Made by a program: the position numbers and the translations under genes | Shown here: piece after piece, positions 901-63,373 of the stretch | Position numbering within the stretch: the first letter of the stretch is position 1 | Layout of the letters: every line of letters starts with the position of its first letter | Assembly (NCBI GenBank): GCA_021776735.1 | Contig: JAJFFH010000024.1 | Coordinates: 87,744-151,743, forward strand | From: Planctomycetota bacterium | GTDB taxonomy: Bacteria > Planctomycetota > PLA2 | Direction: 5' to 3' | DNA: 64,000 nt | Notes under the pieces: model-generated | Seen by the model: the letters and a program-made list of their open reading frames with translations, nothing else | Told to the model about the DNA's origin: nothing | Database searches by the model: none

Positions 901-920
901 ACATCGCCGTCCGTTTGCTG
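901..920 (+). repeat. copy of the dispersed motif (ACATCGCCGTCCGTTTGCTG; reverse complement of the core ACGGACGGCGAT at 903-914)
   Basis: Exact 12-mer plus the shared GCAAAC flank. Begins 1 nt after the ICMT stop, in the convergent intergenic region before the trkH end. Confidence 0.8.
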
Positions 921-1095
921 TTGGCTCTTTTCCTTCTCCGGGCCCCTCTGTGATTGTCTTCCTGACACGGATCACGTCGCGGTCATGCGCGGGACACGCG
1001 CGCGTGGCATCAGCAAGCGCTACGTCTACATGGGCGTCGGTCGGGAACGTTTACGATTCGGCGAGGTCGGGATCGGGGTCCGCTTCGCGGACGGG

Positions 1096-2568
1096 CTAGT
1101 CGCGCCAGGAGATCGTGCGTACGACCTCGGGGTGGAGGAGCACGAGCACGGTCATGACTTCCAGGCGGCCGATCCACATGTTCAAGAAGAACAGGAGTTT
1201 GCTGGCGGTGTGGAGATCGCCGAAGGATTCCATCGGGCCGAGTGCGCCGAAGCCGGGGCCGATGTTGCCCAGGGTTGCGATCGAGCCCGAGAAGCCGACG
1301 GCCATGTCGCCCTCGATAACGCTGACGGCGACCGCGACGATCGCGAAGATGACGAGGTAGGCGACGAAGAAACTCACGATCTGTCGAATCGTGTCGTTTT
1401 GGAGTGGACGACCGCCGACGCGTACGACCTTGAAGGCGCGGGGGTGGACCGAGCGCAGCACTTCGCGGGAGAGGAACTTCGCCATCACGATGTGGCGGAT
1501 GATTTTGGGGCCGCCGCCGGCCGATCCGGCGCAGCCTCCGGCGAACATCAGCGCAGCGAGGATCGCGAGCGCGGACGCGGACCAGAAATTGAAGTCCTCG
1601 CTGGCGTAGCCGGTCGTCGTGACGATGCTGAGCGATTGGAACAGGCCGTGGCGCACGGACGCCTCGAAACCGTGGCCGGGGCTTCCGGCGATCACCACCG
1701 CGAGGCACAGGCCCGCGAAGATCGTGACCGCCGCATAGACGCGGAACTCCGTGTCGCGCCGAAGCGCACGCGGGCGCTTGAGGGCGCGGTATTGCAGGGT
1801 GAAGCTCGCGCCGGCAATGAACATGAACACGATCACGATCCACTGCGACGCGGCCGAATAGCCGTCGAGGGAGCGGCCGTGCGGACTGAACCCACCGGCG
1901 GCCAGCGTCGTGAACGCGTGGCAGACCGCATCGAACACGGACATGCCCCCCACCGTTGAAAGCAGCAGCGCCTGCACGGCGGTCAGCGCGATGTAGAGGC
2001 GCCAGAGCGCGGCCGCCGTCTGGCGGATGCGCGGGGTCAGCGACTCCTCCTCCGGGCCGGGCGCCTCGGAGAAAAACATCTGCCGGCCGGCGACGGCGAG
2101 CGCGGGCAAGACGGCGACGAACAAGACGATGATGCCCATGCCGCCGAGCCACTGCGTCATGGCGCGCCAAAACAGGAGGCCGTGGCTGAGCACGCTCTGT
2201 CGGTCGGCGCCGTTGAAGTGTTCCGAGGAAAAGATCGTCGAGCCCGTCGTCGTGAAACCCGACATGGTCTCGAACAGCGCGTCGATCCACGAGAATCCCT
2301 GCTGCATGTATGGCACCGCGCCAAACGTGCTTACGAGCAGCCACGACGCGGCGACGACCGCCATCGCTTCGACGCGCGCCAGCGTCGGGGCGCGACCGCT
2401 CCGCGCAAGCGCACGACCGAGGACGTAGGCGGCGACGGCGGTGATCGCGAATCCGGCGGCGCCGTCCGGCCGGCCGTAGTACAGATCGACCGCGGCCGGA
2501 ACGAGTAGGAGCACCGCAAACGGGCGCAGGATCTGCCCGAGCACGCGAAGAACGCGAGCGCACCTCAC
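1096..2568 (-). CDS. trkH: TrkH/KtrB-family potassium uptake membrane protein
   Basis: 490 aa polytopic protein with repeated GFTTTG / TTTGYASEDF selectivity-filter-like motifs and SEHFNGADRQS. 4-bp overlap with the upstream trkA. Confidence 0.9.
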   Translation of the reverse strand: MRCARVLRVLGQILRPFAVLLLVPAAVDLYYGRPDGAAGFAITAVAAYVLGRALARSGRAPTLARVEAMAVVAASWLLVSTFGAVPYMQQGFSWIDALFETMSGFTTTGSTIFSSEHFNGADRQSVLSHGLLFWRAMTQWLGGMGIIVLFVAVLPALAVAGRQMFFSEAPGPEEESLTPRIRQTAAALWRLYIALTAVQALLLSTVGGMSVFDAVCHAFTTLAAGGFSPHGRSLDGYSAASQWIVIVFMFIAGASFTLQYRALKRPRALRRDTEFRVYAAVTIFAGLCLAVVIAGSPGHGFEASVRHGLFQSLSIVTTTGYASEDFNFWSASALAILAALMFAGGCAGSAGGGPKIIRHIVMAKFLSREVLRSVHPRAFKVVRVGGRPLQNDTIRQIVSFFVAYLVIFAIVAVAVSVIEGDMAVGFSGSIATLGNIGPGFGALGPMESFGDLHTASKLLFFLNMWIGRLEVMTVLVLLHPEVVRTISWRD

Positions 2569-3929: not shown

Positions 3930-4092
3930 CGGGGCGGATGCTATCAGCTACGAAATCTGCCCGGCGGATTTCGATAGGGGCCGGGGTTCGGCTTCGCCGC
4001 CCGAACGGCCATGAGCATGAAGAGGAACATGAACAGGAACTCCCCTGCGGGAAATGATCCTGAGTTCGTCTTTGGGGGGGCGGGGGCGTGGG

Positions 4093-4112
4093 ACATCGCC
4101 GTCCGTTTGCTG
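4093..4112 (+). repeat. copy of the dispersed motif (ACATCGCCGTCCGTTTGCTG; core at 4095-4106)
   Basis: Exact 12-mer with the GCAAAC flank, in the intergenic region upstream of the trkA start, beside a G7 tract. Confidence 0.8.
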
Positions 4113-4141
4113 TGGTCCTCGTCCGCCGGGTAAGCGCGCGG

Positions 4142-5242: not shown

Positions 5243-5571
5243 TTGAGACGTTTTCCAATCCCCGTCCGGAACGCGACTACGACATCGTGATCGAGTCCCC
5301 GGAGTTCACGTCGGTCTGCCCCAAGACCGGGCTGCCGGATTTCGGGACGATCACGATCCGCTATGTGCCCGACCAGCTCTGCATCGAACTGAAGTCGCTG
5401 AAGTACTACCTCCTCGACTACCGCAACAAGGGCATCTTCTACGAGGCGGTCGTGAACACGATCCTGGACGACCTCGTTGCGGCGTGCGCTCCGCGGCGCA
5501 TGGAGGTCACCGGCGCATTCACTGCCCGCGGCGGTATCACGACGAATGTTGTGGCCCGCCACCCGGCGTAG
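5236..5571 (+). CDS. queF: NADPH-dependent 7-cyano-7-deazaguanine (preQ0) reductase QueF, unimodular type
   Basis: 111 aa with the catalytic Cys context [12 protein letters not shown] and the QueF motif ELKSLKYYL. Confidence 0.9.
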
Positions 5572-6427
5572 CCGGCATGGCCGGGCTGACCGGACCCGCG
5601 TAGGTGTTGAGAAACAGCGCGCCTTCCGCGCGTTCGCGCAAGAGCACGGCCAGCGTCTTCGCGGTGTAGGTCGGCTCGACAAGAAGCCCCGCCGCGCGCG
5701 CGGCTTCCATGGCGGCGTCCACCGCGGGCGTGGTCTCGCCGTACGCGCCTTCGCCCTTCACGACGCGCAGCCGGACGGTCTTGCGCGGCCGGGGCAAGTC
5801 GGGATTGCAGCGCCGCGCCAGACGCGCCGCCCGCCGCGCGCGCCCCTTCAAGCCCGGCGGCGACGGCGCCACGCGCACGGCCACGATCTCGGTCGTCACG
5901 CCGCGCAACATGAAGCCCGCCAGGAGCCCGCTCACGGTCGTTCCGCTACCGAGCGGCACATAGATGCGCTCCGGGACGGGATCGATCTCGAACGCGGCCT
6001 CGACATAGCCGAATGCGCCGCGCGCGGACGCCCCACCGGGCGGGATGATGCGCGTCCCGGGCCTCCAAAGCATCGCCGTCCGTAGCAGGGCGCTCAAAAT
6101 TCCGCCGACCTCCACGATGCGCGCGGCGACTTTGGGAAGCGCGCGGTACGCACCCGTCGGTTGCCCCCGGCTGATGAGGATCACGTCGCAGGGTGCCGGC
6201 GCGTGCACGGCGGTGGCGTAGGCGTGGTGGGCGGAGAGAGTGCTATAGGTCAAGAAGCGTACGGACGGCGATGCCATCAGGAACTGGAGGGCACGCGGCT
6301 TGTTGCCGGCGTAGTTCGGGCAGCAGCGATCCTCGCGCTTGACAAGGAAATCGAGGCCGGCGACCGTCACGGGCTCGACGGGGGTCGGCCGGACGCCGAG
6401 GTCGAGCCGAGCCGCGTTCAGGCGCAT
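5537..6427 (-). CDS. PLP-dependent enzyme of the ACC deaminase / D-cysteine desulfhydrase family
   Basis: Carved from the C-terminal 296 aa of the 930-aa shadow ORF: ...[18 protein letters not shown]... and the Gly-rich PLP loop [17 protein letters not shown]. Start ATG at 6427 (alternative 6442). Converges on and overlaps the queF 3-prime end. Confidence 0.7.
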
Positions 6428-6506
6428 CCCGTTCTGGCGCATTCGGGGGAGGATACACCCGGGTACACTGCCCGCCGTGCGTGTCACGATCGACGATCCG
6501 CCGACG

Positions 6507-9077: not shown

Positions 9078-9615
9078 GACCAGCCCCAACCCAAGCGGGC
9101 GCTCCGTCGTCGCCAAGCCGGCGCGCCACGTCGAACACGTCGAGGTAACCCTTGAGGTGCAAGCCGTGGCGCGCCAATTGAATCAACGGCACGACGAGCG
9201 TGAACCACCAACGCCGGCGCACGTACGCCCCGAACGGATCGACGTGTGCCTGCACCCGGTCGTCATCCCACCCCGCAAAGTGCTTGAGATGCAGCGACGG
9301 TCCGAACGTCCGCTCGCTCGCCTCCCACCGACCGTTTTTCTCGCTAAGCCGGAAAGGCTTGCCGCGCCGAAGCGCGTCCGCGCGAAGGCGGGACGGCGAT
9401 GTTTGCAGGGCAGCGCGCAGCGCCTCGACGTCCGTGCAGCGAAAGTGGAGCTTGCCGGGCTCTGAACCGTCCTCGCGCGCGACAAAACGCCAGAGATCGC
9501 CCATCTTGTACCGGCAATTGAGCACCGTCTGGCGCATCTCGGGCGTCGCGCCCAAAAACCACGCGTCGTCGTAGCCGGGCCGGGCAAGATCGGAGAGGTT
9601 GTGAATAAGTCCCAT
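9052..9615 (-). CDS. hypothetical protein
   Basis: 187 aa ORF with reasonable composition and no motif I recognise. Overlaps the VOC gene 3-prime end by 26 bp (convergent). Confidence 0.4.
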   Translation of the reverse strand: MGLIHNLSDLARPGYDDAWFLGATPEMRQTVLNCRYKMGDLWRFVAREDGSEPGKLHFRCTDVEALRAALQTSPSRLRADALRRGKPFRLSEKNGRWEASERTFGPSLHLKHFAGWDDDRVQAHVDPFGAYVRRRWWFTLVVPLIQLARHGLHLKGYLDVFDVARRLGDDGAPAWVGAGPSTSSKRP

Positions 9616-11830: not shown

Positions 11831-11850
11831 AATCGCCGTCCGTACGCTGC
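11831..11850 (+). repeat. copy of the dispersed motif (AATCGCCGTCCGTACGCTGC; core at 11832-11843; GCGTAC-flank subfamily)
   Basis: Exact 12-mer in the divergent region between the saccharopine DH start and the Sel1 gene start (11883). Confidence 0.8.
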
Positions 11851-12737: not shown

Positions 12738-12760
12738 ACCGCCGTCCGAATCCCGAAGGG

Positions 12761-12780
12761 AGCAAACGGACGGCGATGTT
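12761..12780 (+). repeat. copy of the dispersed motif (AGCAAACGGACGGCGATGTT; core at 12766-12777)
   Basis: Exact 12-mer with the GCAAAC flank, between the convergent 3-prime ends of the Sel1 gene and the 12802..13635 gene. Flanked by short complementary runs (CCCGAA ... TTCGGG). Confidence 0.8.
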
Positions 12781-12801
12781 TTCGGGGCGGTTTGTGCTGG
12801 G

Positions 12802-13635: not shown

Positions 13636-13760
13636 GCGTGCACGATGCGTGCGGCGTGTCACGCCGCGCTCATCGTCGTGTCAAAAACGACGGTTGGGTT
13701 TGGAACAACTACGAAAACCTGCAAACGAGGCGCTCGCGCGTCGGGGCTACGTCGATACAA

Positions 13761-13780
13761 AGCATCGCCGTCCGTACGCT
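13761..13780 (+). repeat. copy of the dispersed motif (AGCATCGCCGTCCGTACGCT; core at 13764-13775)
   Basis: Exact 12-mer, GCGTAC-flank subfamily. About 130 bp upstream of the 12802..13635 gene start. Flanked by AAAGC ... GCTTT. Confidence 0.8.
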
Positions 13781-15959: not shown

Positions 15960-15960
15960 G

Positions 15961-16512
15961 TTACTGCTCGCTCTCGATCACGGGCCTCAGCCGGTGCGCG
16001 AGAATCTCGCGCGCGTGCCGAAACCGCTGTTTCGCCGTGCGTTCCGAGACATCGAGCGCCTCGGCCACCTTGGCGTAGGTCAGTTCGTGGTGTGCGCGCA
16101 ACAAAAACGTCGCGCGCAAGTCCGGCGGCAGCCGCTCCACCTCGGCGCGCACGCGCGTGTCGAGGTCGCGGGCCGCCACCGCGTCGACTGCATCGCCGTC
16201 CGTCAGCTCCCCGTCGAGGCGTTCGACAGGACGACGCCGGCGCAACCGATCCCGAAACAGATTCGTCGCCACGCGAAAAAGCCACGCTCCCAGGGTTCCG
16301 TTGTGAACGTGGAGCCGGTGTTGGTGACGCAGAAAACGTACGAAGGTCTCTTGGCAAAGTTCGTCCGCTGCCCACGGATCGCCGGTCAGGCGGGCCAGGT
16401 AGCCGTGGATTTTTCGTCCATACTCCTGGTAGATCGCTTCGAATCCGTCCGCCATGCACCCCGTAAGACGCGGGGGACGCGTGATTCGGGAAGGGAATCC
16501 CGGCGGATTCAT
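15961..16512 (-). CDS. RNA polymerase ECF-type sigma factor (sigma-70 family, regions 2 and 4)
   Basis: FEAIYQEYGRKIHGYLARLTGD...DELCQETFVRFLRHQ (region 2) and LTYAKVAEALDVSERTAKQRFRHAREIL (region 4 HTH). The start at 16512 gives an ATGA overlap with the upstream gene; alternative start MADGF at 16455. Confidence 0.85.
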   Translation of the reverse strand: MNPPGFPSRITRPPRLTGCMADGFEAIYQEYGRKIHGYLARLTGDPWAADELCQETFVRFLRHQHRLHVHNGTLGAWLFRVATNLFRDRLRRRRPVERLDGELTDGDAVDAVAARDLDTRVRAEVERLPPDLRATFLLRAHHELTYAKVAEALDVSERTAKQRFRHAREILAHRLRPVIESEQ

Positions 16513-17069: not shown

Positions 17070-17271
17070 ACGGGCGGTTTCGTGGCACGCTGTGGTGCGT
17101 TGGGTACAGATCCATACACGAGCGGCGAGGCGAGGGCGGTCGCAAACCCATGCGGCGGCGGTATTTACAGATTTTTTGCGGAATTTGCGGCGTAGGACCG
17201 GTGTTTGCTACGTCTATACATATGTGTGGGGCCCGGACGGGTCGAGCCGACAAAAGCAAAGAAGAAGTCCG

Positions 17272-17640: not shown

Positions 17641-17725
17641 CGGTCGCGGCCTCCGGGAACGTTCGCGCGTGTTCGGCATCGCGCGTGCCCGTGCTTCGGC
17701 GCGTCGAACCCCTTCTGAGGCAGTC

Positions 17726-17744
17726 GACGGACGGCGATGTTTGC
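17726..17744 (+). repeat. copy of the dispersed motif (GACGGACGGCGATGTTTGC; core at 17727-17738)
   Basis: Exact 12-mer at the left edge of a 760-bp ORF-free region. Confidence 0.8.
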
Positions 17745-23000: not shown

Positions 23001-24086
23001 ATGACGAGTTCTGTCGCCGTGCCGCCCCCCGCCGATACCGCCCAGCCGGACTGCGAGTTCCGGCGCCTTGACCCCACGGATCCGGCGTGGCAGGCCTTGC
23101 TCACAACCCACCCCCTCGCGGAGTCGGTGCGGCCGATGTGGGAAGAGGTCGCCGGGTGGGAAGCGATTCGGATCGGGAAGTTCACGGACGGCGATGTCCA
23201 GGCCGGAATCCAGTTCCACACCCGCGGCCTCCCCGGCCTGCCGTGGCGCCTCGCACGCATCACACAACTCCTGCCCACACCGATCGCGGACCGATCGCAG
23301 GCCTGCACGGCAGCGCTCCTGGCCGAAGCCGAACGCGTTGCGTGGGAACGCCGGGTCGTGGAAATCGAGTTCCGGGCGCACATCCCGGTGCCCGACATGA
23401 TCGACGCCCACGGGTTCCACTCGGGCATCGGCAAAGGGCTCGACCAGGCCGGTTACACGCAGGTTCCGGAGTTCAACGGCACCTACTTCGTCGATATTGA
23501 CCGCAGCGACGAGGAGCTCCTCCTCTCGTTCAAGAAAACCACGCGCAGCGAGGTCCGCCGCCCGAAGAAGAAGGGTTGCCGAATCGAAAGGGGCGACGAA
23601 TCCCTGCTTGAAACCCTGTTCGACGGGTACGCCGCTATGGGCGCGCGCAAGGGTCTCGGCGAAACAACGTTGCCGCGCCCGTTCGTGGTGGATCACATGA
23701 AACCGCTGGTACAGGCGGGCCATGTGCACCTGTACTACGCTGCGTACGGCGACGACATCAGCGACATCGCCCTGATCGATGCCCTCGGCACACCGATCAA
23801 CATGCAGTCGGTACGCCTGACCGCCAGCCTGTCGAACAAGTACCCGTCAGCCGCGCGCCGCCTCCACTACGTCATCATGACGATGCTCCGCGACGAGGGC
23901 AAAAAGCTGTACGACCTCGGCGGCAGCCCGGCGCCGGTCCCGATCCCCGGCCATCCGAACTACGGCGTCTGGCAGCACAAGTACCACTACAAGGGCACCT
24001 ACGTCCCGTACATCCCCCGCTTTCGCAAGGCACGAAGCCGCTTCGGTGCCAACCTCGCCCGAACCGTCCGCTTCGTCCGCGACTGA
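23001..24086 (+). CDS. FemAB-family (GNAT-fold aminoacyl-transferase-like) protein, copy 1
   Basis: 361 aa with the FemAB-like C-terminal half (...LHYVIMTMLRDEGKKLYDLGG...). Proteins of this kind are described next to exosortase/PEP-CTERM polysaccharide loci. Contains an in-frame copy of the dispersed 12-mer (FTDGDVQ). Confidence 0.65.
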   Translation: MTSSVAVPPPADTAQPDCEFRRLDPTDPAWQALLTTHPLAESVRPMWEEVAGWEAIRIGKFTDGDVQAGIQFHTRGLPGLPWRLARITQLLPTPIADRSQACTAALLAEAERVAWERRVVEIEFRAHIPVPDMIDAHGFHSGIGKGLDQAGYTQVPEFNGTYFVDIDRSDEELLLSFKKTTRSEVRRPKKKGCRIERGDESLLETLFDGYAAMGARKGLGETTLPRPFVVDHMKPLVQAGHVHLYYAAYGDDISDIALIDALGTPINMQSVRLTASLSNKYPSAARRLHYVIMTMLRDEGKKLYDLGGSPAPVPIPGHPNYGVWQHKYHYKGTYVPYIPRFRKARSRFGANLARTVRFVRD

Positions 24087-24140: not shown

Positions 24141-24381
24141 CCACGGACGGCGATGTGTGCCCGAACCGCACATCCGCGCGGCAGGATTGCCTGGCACCAA
24201 TCAGGCTCGCAGTGCGGCAGGATTACATGGCACCGTCCCGGCTGACAGTGCAGCACGATTACGTGGCACCAATCAAGGCCGGGTGGTCGGCGTGCGTAAC
24301 CGATTGTCGCTAAACGGCTTGCGACGAATTCGCGCCGCTGCGGGCGGCGTCCCCGGGACATCGCCGTCCGTTTGCTTGCTG
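24141..24381 (+). repeat. composite intergenic repeat element A: inverted copies of the dispersed motif (24143-24154 and 24360-24371) flanking three 36-bp direct repeats (24178-24285) that each contain TGGCACC
   Basis: Repeat units GCGGCAGGATTGCCTGGCACCAATCAGGCTCGCAGT / GCGGCAGGATTACATGGCACCGTCCCGGCTGACAGT / GCAGCACGATTACGTGGCACCAATCAAGGCCGGGTG. TGGCAC at 24192, 24228 and 24264, exactly 36 bp apart. Confidence 0.75.
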
Positions 24382-26435: not shown

Positions 26436-26650
26436 AGACGGACGGCGATGCCTCCGGCTCCGGGGTCAGTCGAACGCGTCCGTCGGCGTCGAGGCCGCCG
26501 AGTACGGGTGCCAGGTAATCCTGCTGCCATCACCGGCCGGCAACAGCAGGATCCCCTGGCACCGTACCGGCAGCACGGCAGCAGGATCCCCTGGCACCGT
26601 ACCTCTGGCACCGTACCTCGTGGCACCGTACCTCGCCGTCCGTACGCTCC
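26436..26650 (+). repeat. composite intergenic repeat element B: inverted copies of the dispersed motif (26438-26449 and variant 26633-26644) flanking an imperfect inverted repeat (26506-26528 / 26546-26568) and a 15-bp x3 tandem array of TGGCACCGTACCTC(G)
   Basis: GGGTGCCAGGTAATCCTGCTGCC ... CAGCAGGATCCCCTGGCACCGTACC. TGGCAC at 26557, 26592, 26606 and 26621. The unit GCAGCAGGATNNCCTGGCACC is shared with element A. Confidence 0.75.
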
Positions 26651-37937: not shown

Positions 37938-38921
37938 ATGTCCATCGAAATCGACACGTCGTACTCGTCTTCATCCTCCTCGGGCTCCTCGCCGTCTGGG
38001 TCCTCCGGCTCCTCCGGCTCCTCCGGATCCCCCGGTCCGGGCGCGTCGATGCCCGGTGCACCGCCGATCCCGGCACATGCACTCACGATCGACGTCGAGG
38101 ACTGGTATCACGTCGAAAACCTGACCCCGGTCTGCCCGCCCGACCGCTGGGACAGCTACGAGGCCCGCCTGCCGGCCAACCTCGACCGCATGCTGGATCT
38201 TTTCGACGAAGCGGGCGTCAAGACGACGTGCTTCGTGCTGGGCCGCGCCGCGGAGCGCCACCCGGAAATCGTCGGCAAAATCGTCGCCCGCGGCCACGAA
38301 CTCGCATGCCACGGCTGGTCGCACGAGCTGATCTACCGCCAGACACCCGCGGAGTTCCGCGAGGAGACGATCCGCGCCAAGAAATTCCTCGAGGACCTCG
38401 CAGGCATCGCCGTCCTTGGCTACCGCGCATCGACCTTCTCCATCGTCGAGAAGACCCTGTGGGCGCTCGACATCCTGGCTGAGGCGGGGTTTGAATACGA
38501 CTCGTCAATCGCTCCGTTGCACCACGATCGGTATGGCATCCCGGACTCGCCGAAGCAGCCTCATCGAAGGGAGCTGACGGACGGCGATATCTTGGAGTTT
38601 CCGGTCTGCACGATGCATGGATTGCGCCGCACCTTCCCGCTCGGCGGTGGGTTTTTCCGGTTGTTCCCGGTGTCGTGGGCGCGCAAGAGCATCGAAGAGC
38701 ACGCCGCGCGCGGACAGAGCGCGATGGTGTATCTGCACCCGTGGGAGATCGATCCCGGCCAGCCGCGCGTAGACGGCCTCAAGTGGAGCCACCGCTTTCG
38801 GCATTACGCGCGGCTCGGCGCCACGATGGGCAAGCTCCGGCGCCTTCTGAAGGGCCACCGCTGGGACACGATGGCCTCGATTCTGGGGCTCGCGGGAGAC
38901 GCCGCCGAGGGCAACGCCTAA
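37938..38921 (+). CDS. polysaccharide deacetylase family protein of the subfamily described at exosortase (PEP-CTERM) loci
   Basis: LTIDVEDWYHVENL..., CHGWSHELIYRQT..., LGYRASTF..., YLHPWEIDP. Ser/Gly-rich N-terminus encoded by GGCTCCTCC repeats. Contains an in-frame copy of the 12-mer (LTDGDIL). Start uncertain (37938 or 38047). Confidence 0.8.
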   Translation: MSIEIDTSYSSSSSSGSSPSGSSGSSGSSGSPGPGASMPGAPPIPAHALTIDVEDWYHVENLTPVCPPDRWDSYEARLPANLDRMLDLFDEAGVKTTCFVLGRAAERHPEIVGKIVARGHELACHGWSHELIYRQTPAEFREETIRAKKFLEDLAGIAVLGYRASTFSIVEKTLWALDILAEAGFEYDSSIAPLHHDRYGIPDSPKQPHRRELTDGDILEFPVCTMHGLRRTFPLGGGFFRLFPVSWARKSIEEHAARGQSAMVYLHPWEIDPGQPRVDGLKWSHRFRHYARLGATMGKLRRLLKGHRWDTMASILGLAGDAAEGNA

Positions 38922-40054: not shown

Positions 40055-41748
40055 CGCGGGCGCGCGGGCAACTCGGTCGGTCGCCAGTAGGCCGCGCCCT
40101 TGACCCAGGCCAGGTTCAGCGCGAAGAAAGACCGCCCTGGACCAAGATCGACCACGAGAATCCTCGCGGCGCGCTTCCGAGAGAACGTCTTGTGCCGCGC
40201 CGCAAGGAGTCTTCTTGAAACCGGAGACGCGTCGGCCGCACAGACAACAATCCGGATCTTCGACCGATCCCGGATCAGGTCCAATACGGTCGCGCCCCAC
40301 GAACGAAGTTCGCCCACCCTCGCCCGTTCGGGCGGTTCGAAGTGGCCGCGCATTTCCACGGGCGCGGCCGTTTGGAGCAGGCCATGCAGATGTTTGGCCC
40401 ATCCCCGCCCGGTCCAACCGCCCCGGTCCACGTCCATGCGCGGCGAAGGATCGACCAGAAACAGGATCGGGTCTTCCGACGGCGTCAGAAAGTCGGCGAA
40501 GAGATCCTCTGCCGCGGGCCCGCTGAGATCGTCCGGGAGCATGGGTGGCGTGCCGAGCTGTGCGAGATGGACCGCCAGTCGCCCTCCCGGCGGCCTCTTG
40601 CCCACACCATCCAGAATCAGGAGCGCCTTTTGGGGGTCGGCCTTCAGGCCCCCGCGCCGGACAAACGCCCGGAACTTCTCCCACCGCACGTAGCGGATCG
40701 ACCATTCGAGCCCGCTTGCACTCCGGCGACGCAGCGCGCGCTCCACATCATAGCGCCCGAGATAGGCGATCGCTGCCACACCCAAGAGGTAGCCGATCCG
40801 CCCGTAGCGGTAAAAAACCCACGGCGGCGCGTCCACCCAACGGGCCAACGTGTCGTTCGGGAACACGAAGCCGTACGCCTCCCAGTGGGACAGATAGCGG
40901 TTCAGCAGAGCCAGGAGCGGCCCCATCCGCGCCAGTGGAAAGCCGATATCGCGATCGCCCTTCCGGCCGAGCGCCAGGTATTTGGCCAGCCCCTCGCCGA
41001 CCAGCCGCGAGTCGGTGAACCGCTCGTTGAGATAGAACGTGACCGCGTGCGCGAGCTCGTGTTTCAGGGTGCGGCGTCGGTAGCGCGGCGGAGACTTGGT
41101 GCGAACGACAATGAACCGGTCGTCCAGAAAGTAGGTGCCAGCGGCACGCGCGTTCTTGAACCCGCGAAAGACCTCTGCGCCCATTCGGGGGGTTGCGAGC
41201 ACGTCGATTCGATGCGGGAGGCGGCCGCGCGCTACAGAGAGCCAAAGATCGACGAGACGTTCCCCCTCGGTGCGATCGTACTCGTGATAGCGCCCGTCGA
41301 GCGTCCAGAAGCGTAGGTGATTACCACCGCTGACCTGTTTGGGAAGCGTGTACAGGTAGAGCCGGGACACGCTGGCCTTCCACGGCCAGCGCTCATCGAA
41401 CCGATCCGCAGCCACGAAGTGCTCCGACAGCGCGTTTAGCTCTTCGGGACCCTTGGCACCCCACACGTACGGGTTGAGGTTTAGGCGACGCACGAACGGA
41501 GTCGGGCCGTCCAGCGGGGGAAGCTCGGGACGGCGATGCTTTTGAACATCGGTGCCGGGCGCGGTATCGAGGTCGGGTGCGGGGTCGGGGTCGCGACTGG
41601 GATCCTTGGGCCTGTCCTGCTCCGCCGGGTACGCCACGATTTCGCCCTGCCCGCGTGATCCGGACCCGTTGATGTCGCGCGTGAGCAGCCAGATCAGACC
41701 GATCGCCACCAAGATGACCGCAACGAGAATGAACCGGTCGGCCCTCAT
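40051..41748 (-). CDS. membrane-anchored protein with HExxH zinc-metallopeptidase-like motif
   Basis: N-terminal TM MRADRFILVAVILVAIGLIWLL, Pro/Asp-rich linker, then ...TLKHELAHAVTFYLNERF... No further family assignment from the sequence. Confidence 0.5.
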   Translation of the reverse strand: MRADRFILVAVILVAIGLIWLLTRDINGSGSRGQGEIVAYPAEQDRPKDPSRDPDPAPDLDTAPGTDVQKHRRPELPPLDGPTPFVRRLNLNPYVWGAKGPEELNALSEHFVAADRFDERWPWKASVSRLYLYTLPKQVSGGNHLRFWTLDGRYHEYDRTEGERLVDLWLSVARGRLPHRIDVLATPRMGAEVFRGFKNARAAGTYFLDDRFIVVRTKSPPRYRRRTLKHELAHAVTFYLNERFTDSRLVGEGLAKYLALGRKGDRDIGFPLARMGPLLALLNRYLSHWEAYGFVFPNDTLARWVDAPPWVFYRYGRIGYLLGVAAIAYLGRYDVERALRRRSASGLEWSIRYVRWEKFRAFVRRGGLKADPQKALLILDGVGKRPPGGRLAVHLAQLGTPPMLPDDLSGPAAEDLFADFLTPSEDPILFLVDPSPRMDVDRGGWTGRGWAKHLHGLLQTAAPVEMRGHFEPPERARVGELRSWGATVLDLIRDRSKIRIVVCAADASPVSRRLLAARHKTFSRKRAARILVVDLGPGRSFFALNLAWVKGAAYWRPTELPARPR

Positions 41749-43650: not shown

Positions 43651-44534
43651 GCGCGGCGCGACGCGGCATCATCCTGGCTGGGGGCTCCGGCACACGGCTG
43701 CACCCGATCACCAAGGCGACGAGCAAGCAGCTCCTGCCGGTGTACGACAAGCCGATGGTGTACTACCCGCTGTCCACGTTGATGCTCGCCGGGATTCGCG
43801 AGATCCTCGTAATCACCACCCCGCGCGACAGCGAGGCGTTTCAAACGCTGCTCGGCGACGGCGCGGAATGGGGCCTTGAGCTGCGCTACGCGACGCAGCC
43901 CAACCCCGGCGGACTCGCGCAGGCGTTCTTGATCGACGAGACGTTCGTCGAGGGTCGTTCGAGCGCGCTGGTCCTCGGCGACAACATCTTCTTCGGACAC
44001 GGGCTGGCGAAACGACTCCAAGCCGCCAATGCGCACGACGGCGGTGCGACGGTGTTCGGCTACTACGTCAAGGATCCGCAGCGGTACGGCGTCGTCGAAC
44101 TGGACCGCGACGGCAACGCGCTCTCGATCGAAGAGAAACCCGAAAGCCCGAAGTCGCACTACGCCGTCACAGGCCTCTACTTCTACGACGACACGGTGCT
44201 CGACATCGCCCGCAACCTGAAGCCGAGCGCGCGCGGTGAACTCGAAATCACCGACGTCAACGCGCGTTACCTCGAACGCGGCGCACTGCGCGTCGAAACG
44301 CTGGGCCGCGGCATGGCATGGCTCGACACCGGCACCGTCGATTCGCTGCTGCAGGCGACGAACTTCATCGAGACCATCGAAAGCCGGCAGGGACTAAAAA
44401 TCGCCTGCCCGGAAGAGATCGCGTGGCGGATGAACTACATCGACGATCGCGGACTGGAAACGCTCGCCGACAAACTCAAGAAGACGGTGTACGGCGAGTA
44501 CCTGAGAGAAATCCTCAGGGACGGACGGCGATGA
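43647..44534 (+). CDS. rfbA: glucose-1-phosphate thymidylyltransferase
   Basis: [50 protein letters not shown]... GTG start overlapping the rfbB stop. The last codons (...RDGRR*) lie inside a copy of the 12-mer. Confidence 0.9.
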
Positions 44535-45079: not shown

Positions 45080-45102
45080 GACATCGCCGTCCGTTTGCTG
45101 CC
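45080..45102 (+). repeat. copy of the dispersed motif (GACATCGCCGTCCGTTTGCTGCC; core at 45083-45094)
   Basis: Exact 12-mer with the GCAAAC flank, 13 bp after the rfbC stop. Confidence 0.8.
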
Positions 45103-46008: not shown

Positions 46009-46040
46009 AAAGCCCCGGCAAACGTCCGGGGCTTTTTTTT
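46009..46040 (+). terminator. rho-independent (A-tract/T-tract, potentially bidirectional) terminator
   Basis: AAAGCCCCGG CAAACGT CCGGGGC TTTTTTTT, between the convergent 45237..45943 gene and the DegT gene ending at 46127. Confidence 0.75.
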
Positions 46041-47390: not shown

Positions 47391-48542
47391 ATGCGCTTTC
47401 CGCAAGTCGTCCCCGAATACCCGGTGTGGACCCCGTCCCGCGCAGCCGCCCATCCGCAATGGCGTGGACTGGCTGAGCGAACGGAAGCGGACGGACGGCG
47501 ATGTTCCTTTGCGCGCACGGGGATCTTTCTCGGTTTGAAGGCGCTCGGACTCCAGTCCGGCGACGAAGTCCTTTTGCCCGCGTGGCACTGCGCCGCACTG
47601 GTCGTCCCGGTCGCCAAGGCCGGTTTCACCCCGATTTTCTACGATCTGGACGAAAACGGCCGCCTCGACCCGGCCCGCCTGGAGGCTGCCTGGACCTCCA
47701 AGACCCGCGCGGTCCTCGCGGTTCATCTCTTTGGGTTCGCCGAGGACCTCGCGCCGGTCCGGGCGCTGTGCGACGCACGCAACGGCTTCCTGGTCGAGGA
47801 CGCCACGCAGGCGTACTACCTGGCCCAGGACCCGGTCGGCGATCTCGTTTTGGTCAGTCCGTACAAATTTCTCCCCGCCGCCGAGGGCGGCGAATACTGG
47901 CTCAAGGACGGCTTCGGGCCGGCCCCCGCCCCCCCCGAAACCACTCTCACTGGCACCCTCAAGGCGTTCCTCAAGGACGCCTACCACATTGGCGAGGCAT
48001 CGTTCGCCGCGCGCCGTGGAGGGCTGTGGCAGTGGCTTTTCGGCGCCGTGATCCGGCTGCGCTACCTCGGCCGGCCCTCGCCGTTTCAGGTACACAGCAA
48101 GGCCCCTGCGAATGCGGTCCCGCCCACCGCGGATGACCTACCCACGGCGGACGACCTGATGGAAAAGTGGCACGTGGCGCCGCGTGCGCCCGCGAAGTGG
48201 TCGGCACGGCTGGTCCGACGTGCGCCGCCGGGTGCGGGTGCCGAGGAGCGTCGGGCGAACTACGCGTGGTTTGCGGAGCGGCTGGAGGGCGTATCGGCGC
48301 TGCCTGACGACGTGGTGCCGTACATGCTGCCGCTGTTTCGCGACGAGCCTGGACCGGTGCTCGCCCGCCTGCGGCGCGCGTCGATCCAGTTTCAGCGCTA
48401 CGGCCTGCCGCCTTGGCCGGAAATGGACTTCGCGGCCTTCCCGAATGCCGCCCGGCTGGCCCACACCGGGTTCCAGATTCCGATCCACCAGAACGTGGAC
48501 GCTGCGGCCCGGGAGCGGATTCTGGGCGCTCTGAACGGCTGA
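47391..48542 (+). CDS. DegT/DnrJ/EryC1/StrS-family PLP-dependent aminotransferase (second, divergent copy)
   Basis: ...GDEVLLPAWHCAALVVPV..., ...GFLVEDATQAY... Start uncertain: 47391 gives 383 aa, and the N-terminal codons contain a copy of the 12-mer (ADGRRC). Confidence 0.65.
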   Translation: MRFPQVVPEYPVWTPSRAAAHPQWRGLAERTEADGRRCSFARTGIFLGLKALGLQSGDEVLLPAWHCAALVVPVAKAGFTPIFYDLDENGRLDPARLEAAWTSKTRAVLAVHLFGFAEDLAPVRALCDARNGFLVEDATQAYYLAQDPVGDLVLVSPYKFLPAAEGGEYWLKDGFGPAPAPPETTLTGTLKAFLKDAYHIGEASFAARRGGLWQWLFGAVIRLRYLGRPSPFQVHSKAPANAVPPTADDLPTADDLMEKWHVAPRAPAKWSARLVRRAPPGAGAEERRANYAWFAERLEGVSALPDDVVPYMLPLFRDEPGPVLARLRRASIQFQRYGLPPWPEMDFAAFPNAARLAHTGFQIPIHQNVDAAARERILGALNG

Positions 48543-52726: not shown

Positions 52727-52855
52727 GGTAGAGCCAGACCGGCCCGCCCCCAAGACCAGCGCAGGGCATCTTGCGGACAGCAAACGGGCCTGCCCGCGCC
52801 GAAGCGCCAAGTGAAGGCGGGACGGCGATGCCTTCGGTGGTCGGGGGCGGGCTCG

Positions 52856-54052: not shown

Positions 54053-54077
54053 GGACATCGCCGTCCGTACGCTCTCT
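54053..54077 (+). repeat. copy of the dispersed motif (GGGACATCGCCGTCCGTACGCTCTC; core at 54057-54068)
   Basis: Exact 12-mer, GCGTAC-flank subfamily, between the lipoprotein gene start and the TPR gene end. Confidence 0.8.
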
Positions 54078-54083
54078 CCGTCC

Positions 54084-59138: not shown

Positions 59139-60413
59139 ATGTCGTCTCAGTACGTCCTTGTTGTGTCCTCGGGCAAGCTGCGGCGGGAAGTTGCCGTCGG
59201 AGAAGAGCCGCTCGTCGCGGGGCGCGGCCCCACGTCGAATCTGCGGCTGCCCGACGACTACTGCTCCCGCGAGCACGCCCGGTTCGTGAGCCGGGGGAGC
59301 GATCTGTACGTCGAGGATGTCGGCGCCAGGAACGGCGTGTTCGTGAACGACGAGCGGGTACTCCTCGACAAAAAGCTGACGGACGGCGATGAAGTCCGCC
59401 TTGGACGGACCCAGATCATTGTCCGCCGCGCGGCCGCGCCCCCGCCCCCCGACCCGACTACCGAGGGCGATCTGTCCGACACCGCGACCAAGGATCTCGG
59501 GCCGGAGGGCATTCAGTTCGTCGATCCGGCCGTGGAACTCGGGTTTACCCTGACGCGCCTCGTCGCGGTCTCGGGCATGGGCCTCCTGTTCGAGGCCAAG
59601 GACGTCAAATCCGGGCACAAGGTCGCGTTCAAGATCCTGCGGCCCGACCGCGCGACCGAAGCCAACGTGGCCCGCGCCGTCGAAGAGGCCAAGTCGCTGT
59701 CGAGCATCCACCACGAAAACATCGTGCGGATCCTTTCGACGGGGCGCATGCGCAACGGCGAGTCGTTCCTCGTCATGAAGTACGTCGATGGTCCGACCGC
59801 GACGCAACTCGGCAAGGCCGGCCGCCTCTGGATTCCGGAGGCGCTCAAGATCGCTTCGGACACCTGTTCTGCGCTCCACGCGGTGCACACGCGCGGCATG
59901 GTCCACCGCGACGTCAAGCCGAGCAACGTCATGATCGAGGAAGCGACGCTGCGGATCGTCCTGATCGACTTCTCGCTCGCACTGACGGAAGCCGGCGGCC
60001 TCGCCAGCGCGCCTGCCGGGACGATCATTTTTTGTGCGCCCGAGCAGGTGCAGCCACGCGCCGGAGACGACGCGATGCAGCCGGTGGTCGATGTCTACGG
60101 ACTCGGCGGTACGCTGTACTTCATGCTGACCGGCTCGCACCCGTTCCGCGGCCAGAGCACGATGGAAATCCAGGAAAAGAAACTCAGCGCGCCGCTGCCC
60201 ACGGTCAAGACCCGGCTGAAAGGGCGAGCGATCCCCGAGCTCGACGGGATCATCCACCACTGCATGCAGCCGGATCCCGCGAACCGTCCGCCGAGCATGA
60301 TGGATGTGAAAAAGGCCATCGACCGCGCCCGCCGGCGCTACCCCGCACCGAAGTTCACCGACGCGAACAAGTCGGCCACGCCGTCTCCCGTGCGGGGCAG
60401 GGCGAAGCGTTGA
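59139..60413 (+). CDS. FHA-domain-containing Ser/Thr protein kinase
   Basis: FHA (YVLVVSSGKLRREVAVGEEPLVAGRGPTSNLRL...SREHARFVS...NGVFVNDERV) then Hanks kinase (VAFKIL, HRDVKPSNVM, IDFSLA, APE). The tool's start at 59022 is also possible. Confidence 0.8.
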   Translation: MSSQYVLVVSSGKLRREVAVGEEPLVAGRGPTSNLRLPDDYCSREHARFVSRGSDLYVEDVGARNGVFVNDERVLLDKKLTDGDEVRLGRTQIIVRRAAAPPPPDPTTEGDLSDTATKDLGPEGIQFVDPAVELGFTLTRLVAVSGMGLLFEAKDVKSGHKVAFKILRPDRATEANVARAVEEAKSLSSIHHENIVRILSTGRMRNGESFLVMKYVDGPTATQLGKAGRLWIPEALKIASDTCSALHAVHTRGMVHRDVKPSNVMIEEATLRIVLIDFSLALTEAGGLASAPAGTIIFCAPEQVQPRAGDDAMQPVVDVYGLGGTLYFMLTGSHPFRGQSTMEIQEKKLSAPLPTVKTRLKGRAIPELDGIIHHCMQPDPANRPPSMMDVKKAIDRARRRYPAPKFTDANKSATPSPVRGRAKR

Positions 60414-61606: not shown

Positions 61607-61808
61607 CCCCGCAATTCCAACGACCGCGGACCTGTGGATCGTCGCAACTCGATGTGATCAAGCAGCTTACATCAGGCACGCACCGTCACGGCTTCGTCAC
61701 CAATTGCTGCTCGGCGCTGTATTCTCATCCTTTTGATCCCGGCTCGGTATGGCTGTCAGGCGCACGTGCGATCAACGGCGCGGCTCCAAACCGCCCGTGG
61801 CCCTCGGG

Positions 61809-62219
61809 CTATACGAAGGTCGCGGCGTAGAGCCAGACGCCGGTTGCGACCGTGGCGCAGAACAGGGCGATCAGGATTCGGCCGCGGCGGCGGTGCGCGT
61901 CGCGCTCGTCGAAAACCCGCTTGCCGCGGGCGATCTGGTAGGTCCAGAGCAGCGTGGCCGGGATCGCGAAGGTGAGGTGAATCGCGAGGGCCAGCGCGTC
62001 CAGGGGCGGCGGCGTGGCCTCCAAACGGACCTGAATCTCGAAGGCGACAACGGCAAACAGGAAGACGACGTAGCACGCCGTCATGACCCGCGCGTGCCTC
62101 TTGACCTGACCGCGTCGCACCAGCCGCACGGCCCATAGGAGCACGGGCAGCATCACGACCAAGACGACCAGGAACAGATCCACGAAGAACCCGGCCTCGG
62201 TACCGAAAAAGCCGCTCAC
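61809..62219 (-). CDS. DUF420-like small integral membrane protein
   Basis: 136 aa, 4 TM. 4-bp overlap with the thiI start. Confidence 0.55.
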   Translation of the reverse strand: MSGFFGTEAGFFVDLFLVVLVVMLPVLLWAVRLVRRGQVKRHARVMTACYVVFLFAVVAFEIQVRLEATPPPLDALALAIHLTFAIPATLLWTYQIARGKRVFDERDAHRRRGRILIALFCATVATGVWLYAATFV

Positions 62220-63373
62220 AGGATCAAGTCCTCGCTTGTGGCGGCCGCGACAGCCTCTTCGACCAACGCCGCGACGTCGAGATCGGCCTCAGCGACATCG
62301 CCGTCCGTACGCGTTGTCTTGGTGGCAGGCCGATTCGGCACAAAGAGCTGACAGCAGTCCTGATCGGGCCGAATCGAGATGTCGAAGGTCCCGATTCGTC
62401 GGGCTACGTCGATGATTTCCCGCTTGTCGGTGCCGATCAGGGGCCGGAGGACCGGAATCTGGGCGACCGCATCGACCGTGGAGAGGTTTTCGAGGGTCTG
62501 GGAGGCCACCTGGCCGAGGCTTTCGCCGGTCACGAGGGCGCCGCAGCGCCGGCCGCGGGCGATCCGCTCGGCGATTCTGAGCATGAAGCGCCGGTACAGG
62601 ACGACGCGAAGGGCTTCCGGGCAGTGGAGCCGGATTTCTCGCTGGATCGGAGCGAGCGGAACCATGTGGAGGCGGGTCCGGTACTGCCAGCGGGTCAGCG
62701 TCTCGGCCAGATCGCGGGCTTTTTCCTGCGTCGTGCGGTCCACGAGCGGGAAGCTGTGGAAGTGGACCAGATCGACGTGGCAGCCCCGGTTGATCATGCG
62801 CCACGCGGCCACGGGCGAGTCGATCCCGCCACTCATGAGCGCCGCGACGCGCCCCCCGGTCCCGACCGGCAGACCGCCGGGACCCTCGACCCTGTCCAGC
62901 CCCACGAGCACCTCGTCCTTGAGTACGGAGACGTGATAGTCGTACGCGGCGCCCTTGAGTTGCACGCCACGACCGGTCTCCCGCACCACGACGGCACCGA
63001 TATCACGGTCCGCCTCCATCGACAGCAACGGAAACGTTTTGTCGACCCGCCGCGTGGAGATGCGAAACGTGCCCGGCGGCCGGGCGGCCAAATCCGCCGA
63101 GATAGACCGCCCCACGGCCTCCATATCGCGCGGCAGCCGCTCGAGCCGCAGCACGTACGAAACCCCGCATACCTGCGCCAGCCGGCGCTGGATCACGGCC
63201 GGGTCGACGTCCGCCTCGATCGTGACGAGCACGCGGCTCATGTACGACCGGGTCTCACACGGCCCGATTTCGGCCAGCGCCCGCCGTGCATTGTTCCGCA
63301 GCGCCCGCTCAAAGCGGCTCCGGTTGCCCCCTTTGAGCGCCAGCTCGTGAAAATGAAGCCCGAATGTCGCCAC
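62216..63373 (-). CDS. thiI: tRNA 4-thiouridine(8) synthase ThiI (THUMP + PP-loop ATPase, no rhodanese domain)
   Basis: ...HFHELALKGGNRSRFE..., PP-loop LMSGGIDSPVAAW. C-terminal region contains an in-frame copy of the 12-mer (KTTRTDGDVAE). Confidence 0.85.
   Translation of the reverse strand: MATFGLHFHELALKGGNRSRFERALRNNARRALAEIGPCETRSYMSRVLVTIEADVDPAVIQRRLAQVCGVSYVLRLERLPRDMEAVGRSISADLAARPPGTFRISTRRVDKTFPLLSMEADRDIGAVVVRETGRGVQLKGAAYDYHVSVLKDEVLVGLDRVEGPGGLPVGTGGRVAALMSGGIDSPVAAWRMINRGCHVDLVHFHSFPLVDRTTQEKARDLAETLTRWQYRTRLHMVPLAPIQREIRLHCPEALRVVLYRRFMLRIAERIARGRRCGALVTGESLGQVASQTLENLSTVDAVAQIPVLRPLIGTDKREIIDVARRIGTFDISIRPDQDCCQLFVPNRPATKTTRTDGDVAEADLDVAALVEEAVAAATSEDLIL

What the first reader, a model, noticed from the sequence alone, without database searches (positions are those of the whole stretch)
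901..62316. The dispersed motif comes in two extended subfamilies with different 5-prime flanks
Written in the direct orientation, intergenic copies extend to either (C)AGCAAACGGACGGCGATGTCC (901, 4093, 12761, 24356, 45080; 20-22 nt shared) or (G)AGCGTACGGACGGCGATG (11831, 13761, 26631, 54053, 62293). Coding copies usually keep only the 12-nt core. Two flank families with one shared core are what is seen for uptake sequences with dialects, or for the two ends of a small transposable element (left end versus right end).
Basis: seen in the sequence. Interest (0 to 1): 0.55.

Follow-up and report, generated by a model that had tools for sequence, protein, structure and literature searches.

The report
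Spelling variants of a dispersed DNA word
The two "subfamilies" are only the two commonest spellings at two loosely constrained bases beside one very abundant 13-base DNA word in an uncultured planctomycete; the word is not the two ends of a mobile element, and its distribution resembles the DNA uptake sequences known only from two proteobacterial families.

Summary
All ten listed copies exist with the flanks described. They are not two discrete families. Among 28 exact GGACGGCGAT copies, the two bases between a conserved AGC and ACGG take 10 different dinucleotides. GT (6) and AA (5) are enriched but make up only 39%. Seven of 15-16 intergenic copies are neither type.

The transposon-ends reading fails. 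AA and GT copies show no fixed spacing or orientation. A gene bracketed by one such pair is an ordinary host gene. Coding copies arose by point substitution without indels.

The element is one asymmetric, unstructured word of about 24 nt, aGGnAGCnnACGGACGGCGATGTyy.
- The 13-mer occurs 20 times exactly, against about 0.02-0.4 expected.
- Both strands carry it.
- It is 8-fold denser in intergenic DNA but still about 20-fold over-represented in genes.
- In genes it imposes a T-D-G-D peptide and the rare GAT codon.

A sister lineage carries a looser version that prefers CGGGACGGCGA. Four other related lineages lack it.

The closest analogue is a DUS/USS-type uptake sequence with lineage dialects. 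Function is untested, and inverted terminator pairs are rare here.

The parts
901..922 (-). AA-type copy, CAGCAAACGGACGGCGATGTCT. Intergenic, 2 nt after the stop of the PEMT-like gene (379-900 +).
4093..4114 (-). AA-type copy, CAGCAAACGGACGGCGATGTCC. Intergenic, about 37-45 nt after the upstream gene's stop and about 165 nt before trkA. Followed by CCCCCGCCCCCCC.
6071..6083 (-). Core copy (flank CTGCT), sense inside the PALP-enzyme gene 5537-6442.
6256..6273 (+). GT-type copy AAGCGTACGGACGGCGATG, antisense inside the same PALP gene.
9389..9435 (+). CGGG-variant copy (AAGGCGGGACGGCGATG, 9389-9401 +) with a degenerate inverted partner ACGGACGTCGAGG (9423-9435 -). Coding status is uncertain because ORF 9052-9615(-) is called as a gene in the Logan assembly.
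11831..11848 (-). GT-type copy CAGCGTACGGACGGCGATT (1 core mismatch), about 20 nt upstream of the probable ATG of saccharopine dehydrogenase.
12738..12782 (+). AA-type copy (12761-12782 +) paired with the inverted partial copy ACCGCCGTCC (12738-12747). They form a 9-bp stem flanked by A8 and U4 between convergent genes. This is the only clear terminator-like hairpin built from the word.
13763..13780 (-). GT-type copy AAGCGTACGGACGGCGATGCTTT, intergenic, about 100 nt upstream of gene 12802-13662(-).
16191..16203 (-). TG-type copy (GAG CTG ACG GAC GGC GAT), sense in a CDS.
17727..17739 (+). Copy with flank CAGTCG, in the 1.3-kb gene-poor stretch 17070-18403.
23184..23196 (+). Copy (AAGTTC flank), sense in the FemAB-like gene, frame T-D-G-D.
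24143..24155 (+). CC-type copy (AAAGCCC), intergenic, 57 nt after the stop of the FemAB-like gene.
24356..24377 (-). AA-type copy AAGCAAACGGACGGCGATGTCC, intergenic, 45 nt upstream of asnB and antisense to it.
26438..26450 (+). AG-type copy (GAAGCAG), intergenic, 34 nt after the asnB stop.
26631..26648 (-). GT-type copy GAGCGTACGGACGGCGAGG (1 core mismatch), intergenic.
28629..28641 (+). GT-type coding copy (GGT ACG GAC GGC GAT A) in a glycosyltransferase gene, frame T-D-G-D.
32214..32226 (+). Copy antisense in the 1098-aa gene, frame I-A-V.
35055..35067 (-). CGGG-variant copy, antisense in a glycosyltransferase gene.
38405..38417 (-). 1-mismatch copy (AAGGACGGCGATG), antisense in the polysaccharide deacetylase gene.
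38577..38589 (+). TG-type copy (GAG CTG ACG GAC GGC GAT A), sense in the same gene.
41526..41538 (+). CGGG-variant copy (GAAGCTCGGGACGGCGATGCTTTT), antisense in gene 40051-41748.
44521..44533 (+). Copy at the end of rmlA. Its ATG (44531) is the rmlC start codon and overlaps the rmlA stop (ATGA).
45080..45101 (-). AA-type copy CAGCAAACGGACGGCGATGTCC, intergenic, 15 nt after the rmlC stop and antisense to it.
47491..47503 (+). GG-type copy (GAAGCGG), between divergent DegT-family genes.
52818..52830 (+). CGGG-variant copy (AAGGCGGGACGGCGATGCCTT), intergenic, 26 nt after a stop and antisense to that gene.
54053..54073 (-). GT-type copy GAGCGTACGGACGGCGATGTCC, 16 nt after the stop of the 1247-aa TPR gene. 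Followed by the small hairpin AATCGCC-TGC-GGCGATT.
59379..59391 (+). TG-type copy in the FHA domain of a Ser/Thr kinase (AAG CTG ACG GAC GGC GAT). The motif-free relative uses TCG GAC GGG GAC for the same residues.
62293..62313 (-). GT-type copy ACGCGTACGGACGGCGATGTCG inside the thiI coding sequence (T-R-T-D-G-D). Positionally conserved in the sister lineage as CATGACGGCGATG and absent in more distant orthologues.
63455..63467 (+). GA-type copy upstream of the opp-like operon. Positionally conserved in L078/L081.

Best explanation
There is one dispersed element, not two. It is an asymmetric double-stranded-DNA word of about 24 nt, aGGnAGC-NN-ACGGACGGCGATG-Tyy, with an invariant 10-13-nt core. 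AA and GT are the two most frequent spellings at its least constrained positions (NN).

Shown:
- The word is lineage-specific and has no preferred orientation.
- It is not palindromic and is not associated with secondary structure.
- It arises in place by point substitution in both intergenic and coding DNA.
- In coding DNA it overrides codon preference and even amino-acid sequence.

Inferred: it is read as duplex DNA by a sequence-specific protein of this lineage, and it is kept abundant by a genome-wide bias rather than by transposition. The mechanism I think most likely is the one known for DUS/USS uptake sequences. A competence-pilus DNA receptor would preferentially import DNA that carries the word. 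Recombination would then spread new copies wherever they are tolerated: intergenic spacers, variable protein segments and compatible reading frames. The receptor's preference would drift between lineages, giving ACGG here and CGGG in the sister lineage.
For: Abundance: the 13-mer occurs 20 times exactly, against 0.37 (shuffles) or 0.015 (Markov) expected.

Strands and spacing: 16 copies on + and 12 on -, while cumulative GC skew is monotonic across the window. Spacing is more even than random (CV 0.65 versus 0.97, P = 0.009).

Distribution: 1.9 copies per kb in intergenic DNA versus 0.23 per kb in coding DNA (p = 1.6e-7). The coding copies are still about 20-fold above expectation.

Frame restriction: sense copies read T-D-G-D and antisense copies read I-A-V.

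Codon choice: 6 of 19 DGD tripeptides use GAC GGC GAT (2.1 expected), and all 6 follow ACG.

Effect on proteins: the thiI C-terminus reads TDGD or HDGD only in lineages that carry the motif. Others read PDEGAD, PAELEE or PSQAEA at that site. In the kinase FHA domain the motif lineages use GGC GAT where the motif-free relative uses GGG GAC.

No structure: only 2 of 28 copies have an inverted partner. Mean folding z-score of intergenic copies is +0.4.

Logo: information extends from -11 to +13, with a minimum at -4/-3.

Lineage range and dialect: the word is present in the window and in L078/L081, and absent from L079/L080, L116, L117 and L118. Three of four copies in the syntenic block have positional counterparts in L078; the fourth has turned over.

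Published DUES show the same properties in coding DNA and the same tendency to sit in permissive regions (10.1101/2025.10.24.684340; PMC3630211).
Against: - No functional evidence for uptake exists. I found no report of natural transformation or uptake sequences in Planctomycetota.
- The competence genes of this genome could not be inspected.
- Inverted pairs and terminator hairpins hold about half of known DUES but are rare here (1-2 of 28).
- The intergenic excess (8-fold) is stronger than my recollection of DUS/USS genomes. That would also fit a selected protein-binding site.
- The sample is one 64-kb window plus about 32 kb of a sister lineage. Genome-wide statistics are unknown.
- Coding versus intergenic calls rest on my own gene map (codon statistics, Pfam, and partial external gene calls). 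They are uncertain for 9389, 11831 and 47491.
Confidence: 0.4

Rival explanations
1. The word is the binding site of an abundant chromosomal protein, such as a nucleoid-associated, architectural or global regulatory factor. Each copy is selected individually, mainly in intergenic DNA. AA and GT are tolerated spacer variants.
For: Intergenic enrichment is 8-fold, and 14 of 41 intergenic regions carry a copy. The copy upstream of the opp-like operon is conserved in position, about 16 nt upstream of a conserved TTGACC-N17-TATCGT promoter-like element. Seven of 15 intergenic copies lie within 60 nt after a stop codon, against 23% expected (p = 0.04). The 24-nt extended consensus suits a multi-contact protein site.
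Against: Thirteen exact copies sit inside genes, about 20-fold over expectation. They impose a peptide and a rare codon, which is unusual for regulatory sites. There is no fixed position relative to starts, stops or promoter-like hexamers. The implied number of sites, more than a thousand per genome if the density holds, exceeds typical regulons.
Confidence: 0.3
2. AA-type and GT-type copies are the left and right ends of a small transposable element or MITE. More generally, the word spreads by transposition.
For: Some copies lie in convergent pairs: 24143+/24359- (216 nt), 26438+/26631- (193 nt) and 12766+/13763- (997 nt). AA copies share up to 22 nt.
Against: AA-to-GT distances range from 935 to 8974 nt with mixed orientations. 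The two roughly 200-nt pairs are CC/AA and AG/GT, not AA/GT. Their interiors share only a local 35-nt tandem repeat. The gene enclosed by 12766/13763 is a host gene with a syntenic homologue in the motif-free L116. Coding copies differ from motif-free orthologues by substitutions only. No similarity extends beyond about 24 nt.
Confidence: 0.02
3. The word is an RNA-level or hairpin element: an intrinsic terminator arm, a REP/BIME-like palindromic unit, or a structured leader.
For: 12738/12768 form a 9-bp stem flanked by A8 and U4 between convergent genes. 9389/9423 form a degenerate inverted pair. The 3' flank is T-rich. There is a modest excess just after stop codons.
Against: Twenty-six of 28 copies have no inverted partner. 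Folding z-scores are not negative. Orientation relative to transcription is mixed (8 sense and 5 antisense in CDS; 5-6 sense and 4 antisense in tandem spacers). Nearly half the copies are inside genes. The clearest canonical terminators in the window (46009-46035, 17888-17851) do not contain the word. There is no Rfam match.
Confidence: 0.05
4. The word is a polar chromosome-processing signal, such as a Chi-like recombination hotspot or a KOPS-like translocase guide.
For: Such signals are short non-palindromic words that are abundant in both coding and non-coding DNA.
Against: Such signals are strongly skewed to one strand within a replichore. Here the count is 16+/12- while cumulative GC skew falls monotonically across the window. 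Thirteen to 24 nt is also longer than known examples (my knowledge).
Confidence: 0.04

Closest known systems
DNA uptake sequences (DUS of Neisseriaceae, USS of Pasteurellaceae; collectively DUES)
   Same: - A short invariant core with a weaker extended consensus.
- About one copy per 2-3 kb, on both strands.
- Present in genes and spacers, with an excess in spacers.
- Restricted reading frames, and placement in variable protein segments.
- Created by point mutation rather than insertion.
- Variants that differ near the 5' end between related lineages ('dialects').
- Occasional inverted pairs that make terminators.
Sources: PMC3630211 and 10.1101/2025.10.24.684340.
   Different: - Different phylum (Planctomycetota), with no known competence there.
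- Inverted pairs and terminator location are rare here, whereas about half of DUES sit in predicted terminators.
- Stronger intergenic bias.
- Longer core (13 nt).
- Receptor and uptake preference are untested.
- The AA/GT variation lies within one genome at low-information positions, so it is not a dialect in the published sense.
REP/BIME and REPIN elements (RAYT-associated palindromic repeats)
   Same: Lineage-specific short repeats of about 20-35 nt that are very common in intergenic spacers, sometimes in inverted pairs.
   Different: REPs are imperfect palindromes and essentially extragenic (my knowledge). This word is asymmetric, unstructured, and nearly half of its copies are inside genes.
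MITEs / ends of small transposable elements
   Same: Dispersed copies, some in inverted orientation within a few hundred bases.
   Different: There is no conserved interior, no fixed length and no left/right pairing. Copies arise by substitution in orthologous sequence.
HIP1 (GCGATCGC) of cyanobacteria
   Same: A hyper-abundant short word found in coding and non-coding DNA of one lineage, with unknown or debated function (my knowledge).
   Different: HIP1 is an 8-bp palindrome and far denser. This word is a 13-nt non-palindrome.

Membership tests
DUS/USS-type uptake sequence | Short conserved core present at roughly one copy per 1-3 kb, far above chance | tested here: met
   Twenty exact 13-mers and 28 exact 10-mers in 64 kb, against 0.015-0.75 expected. 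This covers the window only; the whole genome could not be reached.
DUS/USS-type uptake sequence | No strand polarity; both orientations about equally frequent | tested here: met
   16+/12- with monotonic GC skew.
DUS/USS-type uptake sequence | Copies inside genes use a restricted set of reading frames and sit in variable protein segments, shaping the peptide | tested here: met
   Frames T-D-G-D and I-A-V. Codon test. thiI and kinase alignments.
DUS/USS-type uptake sequence | A large fraction of copies (about half) lie in terminators, often as inverted pairs | tested here: not met
   Only 12738/12768 and the degenerate 9389/9423 have partners. The terminator scan does not coincide with copies. 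There is a modest excess within 60 nt after stop codons.
DUS/USS-type uptake sequence | Lineage-specific dialects that track phylogeny | tested here: inconclusive
   In the window, AC precedes GGACGGCGA in 25 of 34 copies. In L078, CG precedes it in 5 of 10. Four other relatives lack the word. Samples are small and there is no phylogeny.
DUS/USS-type uptake sequence | Competence machinery and a cognate DNA receptor (ComP / predicted ComN), with preferential uptake of DNA bearing the word | not testable with these tools
   The source genome beyond the window was not retrievable. No culture is available.
MITE / transposon ends | Two terminal repeats in inverted orientation at a fixed distance around a conserved interior | tested here: not met
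MITE / transposon ends | Copies are insertions relative to empty orthologous sites | tested here: not met
   The thiI and kinase copies align without indels to orthologues that lack the motif.
REP/BIME | Imperfect palindrome able to form a hairpin | tested here: not met
REP/BIME | Confined to extragenic space | tested here: not met
   Thirteen of 28 exact copies are inside CDS.
Chi/KOPS-type polar words | Strong strand skew along a replichore | tested here: not met

The most novel reading that the evidence does not exclude
An uncultured Planctomycetota lineage carries a true DNA uptake sequence, ACGGACGGCGATG with an AGC-NN 5' extension, and its sister lineage carries the dialect CGGGACGGCGATG. 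This would be the first uptake-sequence system outside Proteobacteria. It would imply sequence-selective natural transformation in planctomycetes.
Probability: 0.25. Interest if true: 0.8.

Novelty: new variant of a known kind. Interest (0 to 1): 0.45.

Why it matters
The subfamily question itself is minor. The two flank types are spelling variants and carry no evidence of a mobile element.

The word they belong to matters more. Sequence-specific 'self' words that reshape codons and peptides across a genome are documented only for the uptake sequences of Neisseriaceae and Pasteurellaceae. A word with the same behaviour in coding DNA, in Planctomycetota, gives a concrete and testable handle on one of two things. 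Either it marks sequence-selective DNA uptake, or it marks a very abundant unknown DNA-binding protein, in a phylum where neither is known.

It also offers a natural comparison set: two lineages with different preferred spellings, and several syntenic relatives without the word.

Tried and rejected

2. A metagenome scan with the AA-type 19-mer found 33 contigs. Nearly all carry one unrelated, highly conserved low-GC element that happens to contain the 19-mer. None is multi-copy.

3. A viral-contig scan gave single hits only.

4. The source NCBI contig (163,781 bp) could not be fetched. Only Logan contigs that duplicate the window, plus 4.5 kb beyond it, were available. That extra stretch has no exact copy.

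5. Flank-to-flank complementarity (AAGC...GCTT, AAGGC...GCCTT) looked suggestive in 3-4 copies. It is not general, and neither the folding z-scores nor the mutual-information scan of flank positions supports it.

6. The motif ATG as a general start codon holds only for rmlC (44531).

7. A fixed relation to promoter-like hexamers was not found.

8. A literature search for the word and for planctomycete uptake sequences found nothing relevant.


Full report
**Source and setting**

The window has 66% G+C. Its proteins match only uncultured Planctomycetota MAGs. The nearest thiI relatives are 74% identical and the next group about 67%. The exact proteins are recorded on an NCBI contig of 163,781 bp and on Logan contigs of run SRR15505515. 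The NCBI record could not be retrieved.

I built a gene map from codon statistics. I corrected it with Pfam hits and with external gene calls for parts of the window. On this map 88% of the window is coding.

**The observation**

ACGGACGGCGATG occurs 20 times exactly and 25 times with up to one mismatch. Shuffles give 0.37 and a third-order Markov model gives 0.015.

- 11831 and 26631 each carry a core mismatch.
- 62293 reads ACGCGT and lies inside thiI.
- 11831 lies in the leader or first codons of a saccharopine dehydrogenase gene.
- Two further GT copies were missed: 6261+ and 28629+, both coding.

Seven intergenic copies belong to neither type: CG, CC, AG, GG and GA, plus two copies of AAGGCGGGACGGCGATG.

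**Is there a two-family structure?**

I built a position matrix from the 28 exact GGACGGCGAT copies. Information runs from -11 to +13, giving aGGnAGC-NN-ACGGACGGCGATG-Tyy. The NN positions are the least constrained inside the element.

Ten different dinucleotides occur at NN: GT 6, AA 5, GG 4, TG 3 and six others. AA and GT exceed their background before AC (4.8% and 5.6%), and the two positions are not independent (mutual information p about 0.001-0.004; top-two share p = 0.015). The two types together make up only 39% of copies.

NN shows no significant coupling to the 3' flank. The strongest couplings among flank positions are within the AGC block and between that block and the AC/CG alternative at -2/-1. 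The TG type is simply the codon CTG before an in-frame T-D-G-D.

I conclude that AA and GT are two modes on a continuum, not two families.

**Transposon ends?**

- Distances from each AA copy to the nearest GT copy are 935, 997, 2167, 2272, 5359 and 8974 nt, in mixed relative orientations.
- The two roughly 200-nt convergent pairs (24143+/24359-, 26438+/26631-) are CC/AA and AG/GT. Their interiors share only a local 35-36-nt tandem repeat.
- The gene enclosed by 12766+/13763- is homologous to the syntenic gene of a relative without the motif.
- In thiI and in an FHA-domain kinase, the copies align base-for-base with orthologues that lack the word. They differ only by substitutions.

This reading is rejected.

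**Anatomy and distribution**

- Copies are on both strands (16+/12-) although cumulative GC skew is monotonic.
- Spacing is more even than random (CV 0.65 versus 0.97, P = 0.009).
- Fifteen of 28 copies are intergenic. Density is 1.9 per kb there and 0.23 per kb in genes (p = 1.6e-7). The 13 coding copies are still about 20-fold above expectation.
- Fourteen of 41 intergenic regions hold a copy.
- Seven of 15 intergenic copies lie within 60 nt after a stop codon, against 23% expected (p = 0.04).
- Orientation relative to transcription is mixed.

The word is not a hairpin element. Only 12768 and 9391 have an inverted partner. The 12738/12768 pair forms a 9-bp stem flanked by A8 and U4 between convergent genes. 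Folding z-scores of 80-nt contexts average +0.4 for intergenic copies. Canonical terminators in the window do not use the word. There is no Rfam match to it. It has no fixed relation to promoter-like hexamers.

**DNA-level pressure in genes**

Sense copies are read T-D-G-D and antisense copies I-A-V. Of 19 D-G-D tripeptides, 6 use GAC GGC GAT (2.1 expected; GAT makes up only 23% of Asp codons), and all six follow ACG.

In the kinase FHA domain the D-G-D residues are conserved. The two lineages that carry the word write GGC GAT, and the relative without it writes GGG GAC. In thiI the peptide TDGD or HDGD exists only in the lineages with the word. Others have PDEGAD, PAELEE or PSQAEA at the same site. 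So the word is imposed on the DNA and the protein follows.

**Phylogenetic range**

The sister lineage is represented by JGI contigs L078 and L081 (74% thiI identity). It has about ten looser copies in 21 kb, with the same AAGC 5' flank and GYTTT 3' flank. It prefers CG rather than AC before GGACGGCGA: 5 of 10 against 2 of 10. In the window the figure is 25 of 34 for AC.

Three of the four window copies in the syntenic 54-64 kb block have positional counterparts there: the copy upstream of the opp-like operon, the copy at the thiI 3' end, and the copy in the kinase FHA domain. The fourth, after the TPR gene, does not.

Four other related lineages (L079/L080, L116, L117, L118) lack the word. 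Seventy-five unrelated genomes that happened to contain one match never had a second copy within 8 kb. The 4.5 kb beyond the window's end contains only two one-mismatch coding copies.

**Interpretation**

The element is a lineage-specific duplex-DNA word. It is kept abundant by a genome-wide bias and not by transposition or RNA structure.

The only documented class with this combination of properties is the DUS/USS uptake sequences of Neisseriaceae and Pasteurellaceae (PMC3630211; 10.1101/2025.10.24.684340). The shared properties are a short asymmetric core, an extended weak consensus, both strands, presence in genes and spacers, frame restriction, placement in variable protein segments, origin by point mutation, and variants between lineages.

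The differences are the rarity of inverted terminator pairs, a stronger intergenic bias, and a phylum with no reported competence. Uptake could not be tested, and the genome's competence genes were out of reach. A selected binding site for an abundant chromosomal protein remains a serious rival.

My confidence that the AA/GT types are spelling variants of one word is about 0.85. My confidence in the uptake-type mechanism is about 0.3-0.4.

**Verdict**

The transposon reading is rejected. The uptake-sequence analogy is reasonable for the word, but not for the AA/GT split. The dialect-like difference lies between lineages, at -2/-1. I found no description of this word in the literature searched.

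Noticed in passing
window 33886-33978 (-): A c-di-GMP-I riboswitch (Rfam RF01051, 61.5 bits, E 1.3e-9) lies just upstream of the 1098-aa PcRGLX-like protein gene (30540-33836 -), inside a polysaccharide-biosynthesis region.
   Followed up: no
window 24178-24285 and 26544-26630: Tandem 35-36-nt repeats (GCAGCAGGATnnCCTGGCACCGTnCC, 3 copies each) occupy two successive intergenic regions of the exopolysaccharide locus. Each array is bracketed by a convergent pair of motif copies. They may be regulator binding sites; TGGCAC resembles a sigma-54 -24 box.
   Followed up: partly
window 63478-63522; L078 9619-9700: A promoter-like TTGACC-N17-TATCGT lies about 7 nt before the ATG at 63520 and is conserved in the sister lineage. 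This suggests a leaderless mRNA for the opp-like operon. The motif copy lies about 16 nt upstream of the -35 element.
   Followed up: partly
window 4075-4086(-), 42834-42845(-), 47923-47934(+), 59439-59450(+), 63487-63506(+): C-rich tracts (CCCCCGCCCCCC) give 10 matches with up to 1 mismatch, against 1.7 expected. Several lie 10-60 nt 3' of a motif copy (4094, 42855, 59379, 63455). One of them encodes poly-Gly in rmlB.
   Followed up: partly
window 17070-18403: A 1.3-kb stretch has no convincing gene. It contains a motif copy (17727+) and a strong terminator-like hairpin (17888-17851, -; 16 bp followed by a T run). Rfam finds nothing there even at E <= 1.
   Followed up: partly
L117 (GCA_021776785.1, JAJFFF010000044.1): A related planctomycete without this word has its own over-represented palindromic word, GGGACCAGGTCCC / AAACCCGGGACC (5-8 copies in 21 kb). 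It looks REP-like.
   Followed up: no
L082-L114, L119-L150 (JGI metagenome and IMG/VR contigs): The 19-mer AGCAAACGGACGGCGATGT is also embedded in an unrelated, highly conserved element of about 100 nt. That element sits near the ends of low-GC (38-56% GC) metagenome contigs, some of which also appear in the viral collection (e.g. L087 = L119). It is single-copy per contig.
   Followed up: partly
window 44531-44534: rmlA and rmlC overlap by ATGA. The ATG of the motif copy is the rmlC start codon (the Pfam domain starts at residue 5).
   Followed up: yes
L078 18960-19030: The sister lineage has a short tandem repeat (GCCCGCGAGCCGTACCGTCC, about 3 copies) directly after the TPR gene. The window has a motif copy and a small hairpin at the equivalent place.
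   Followed up: no
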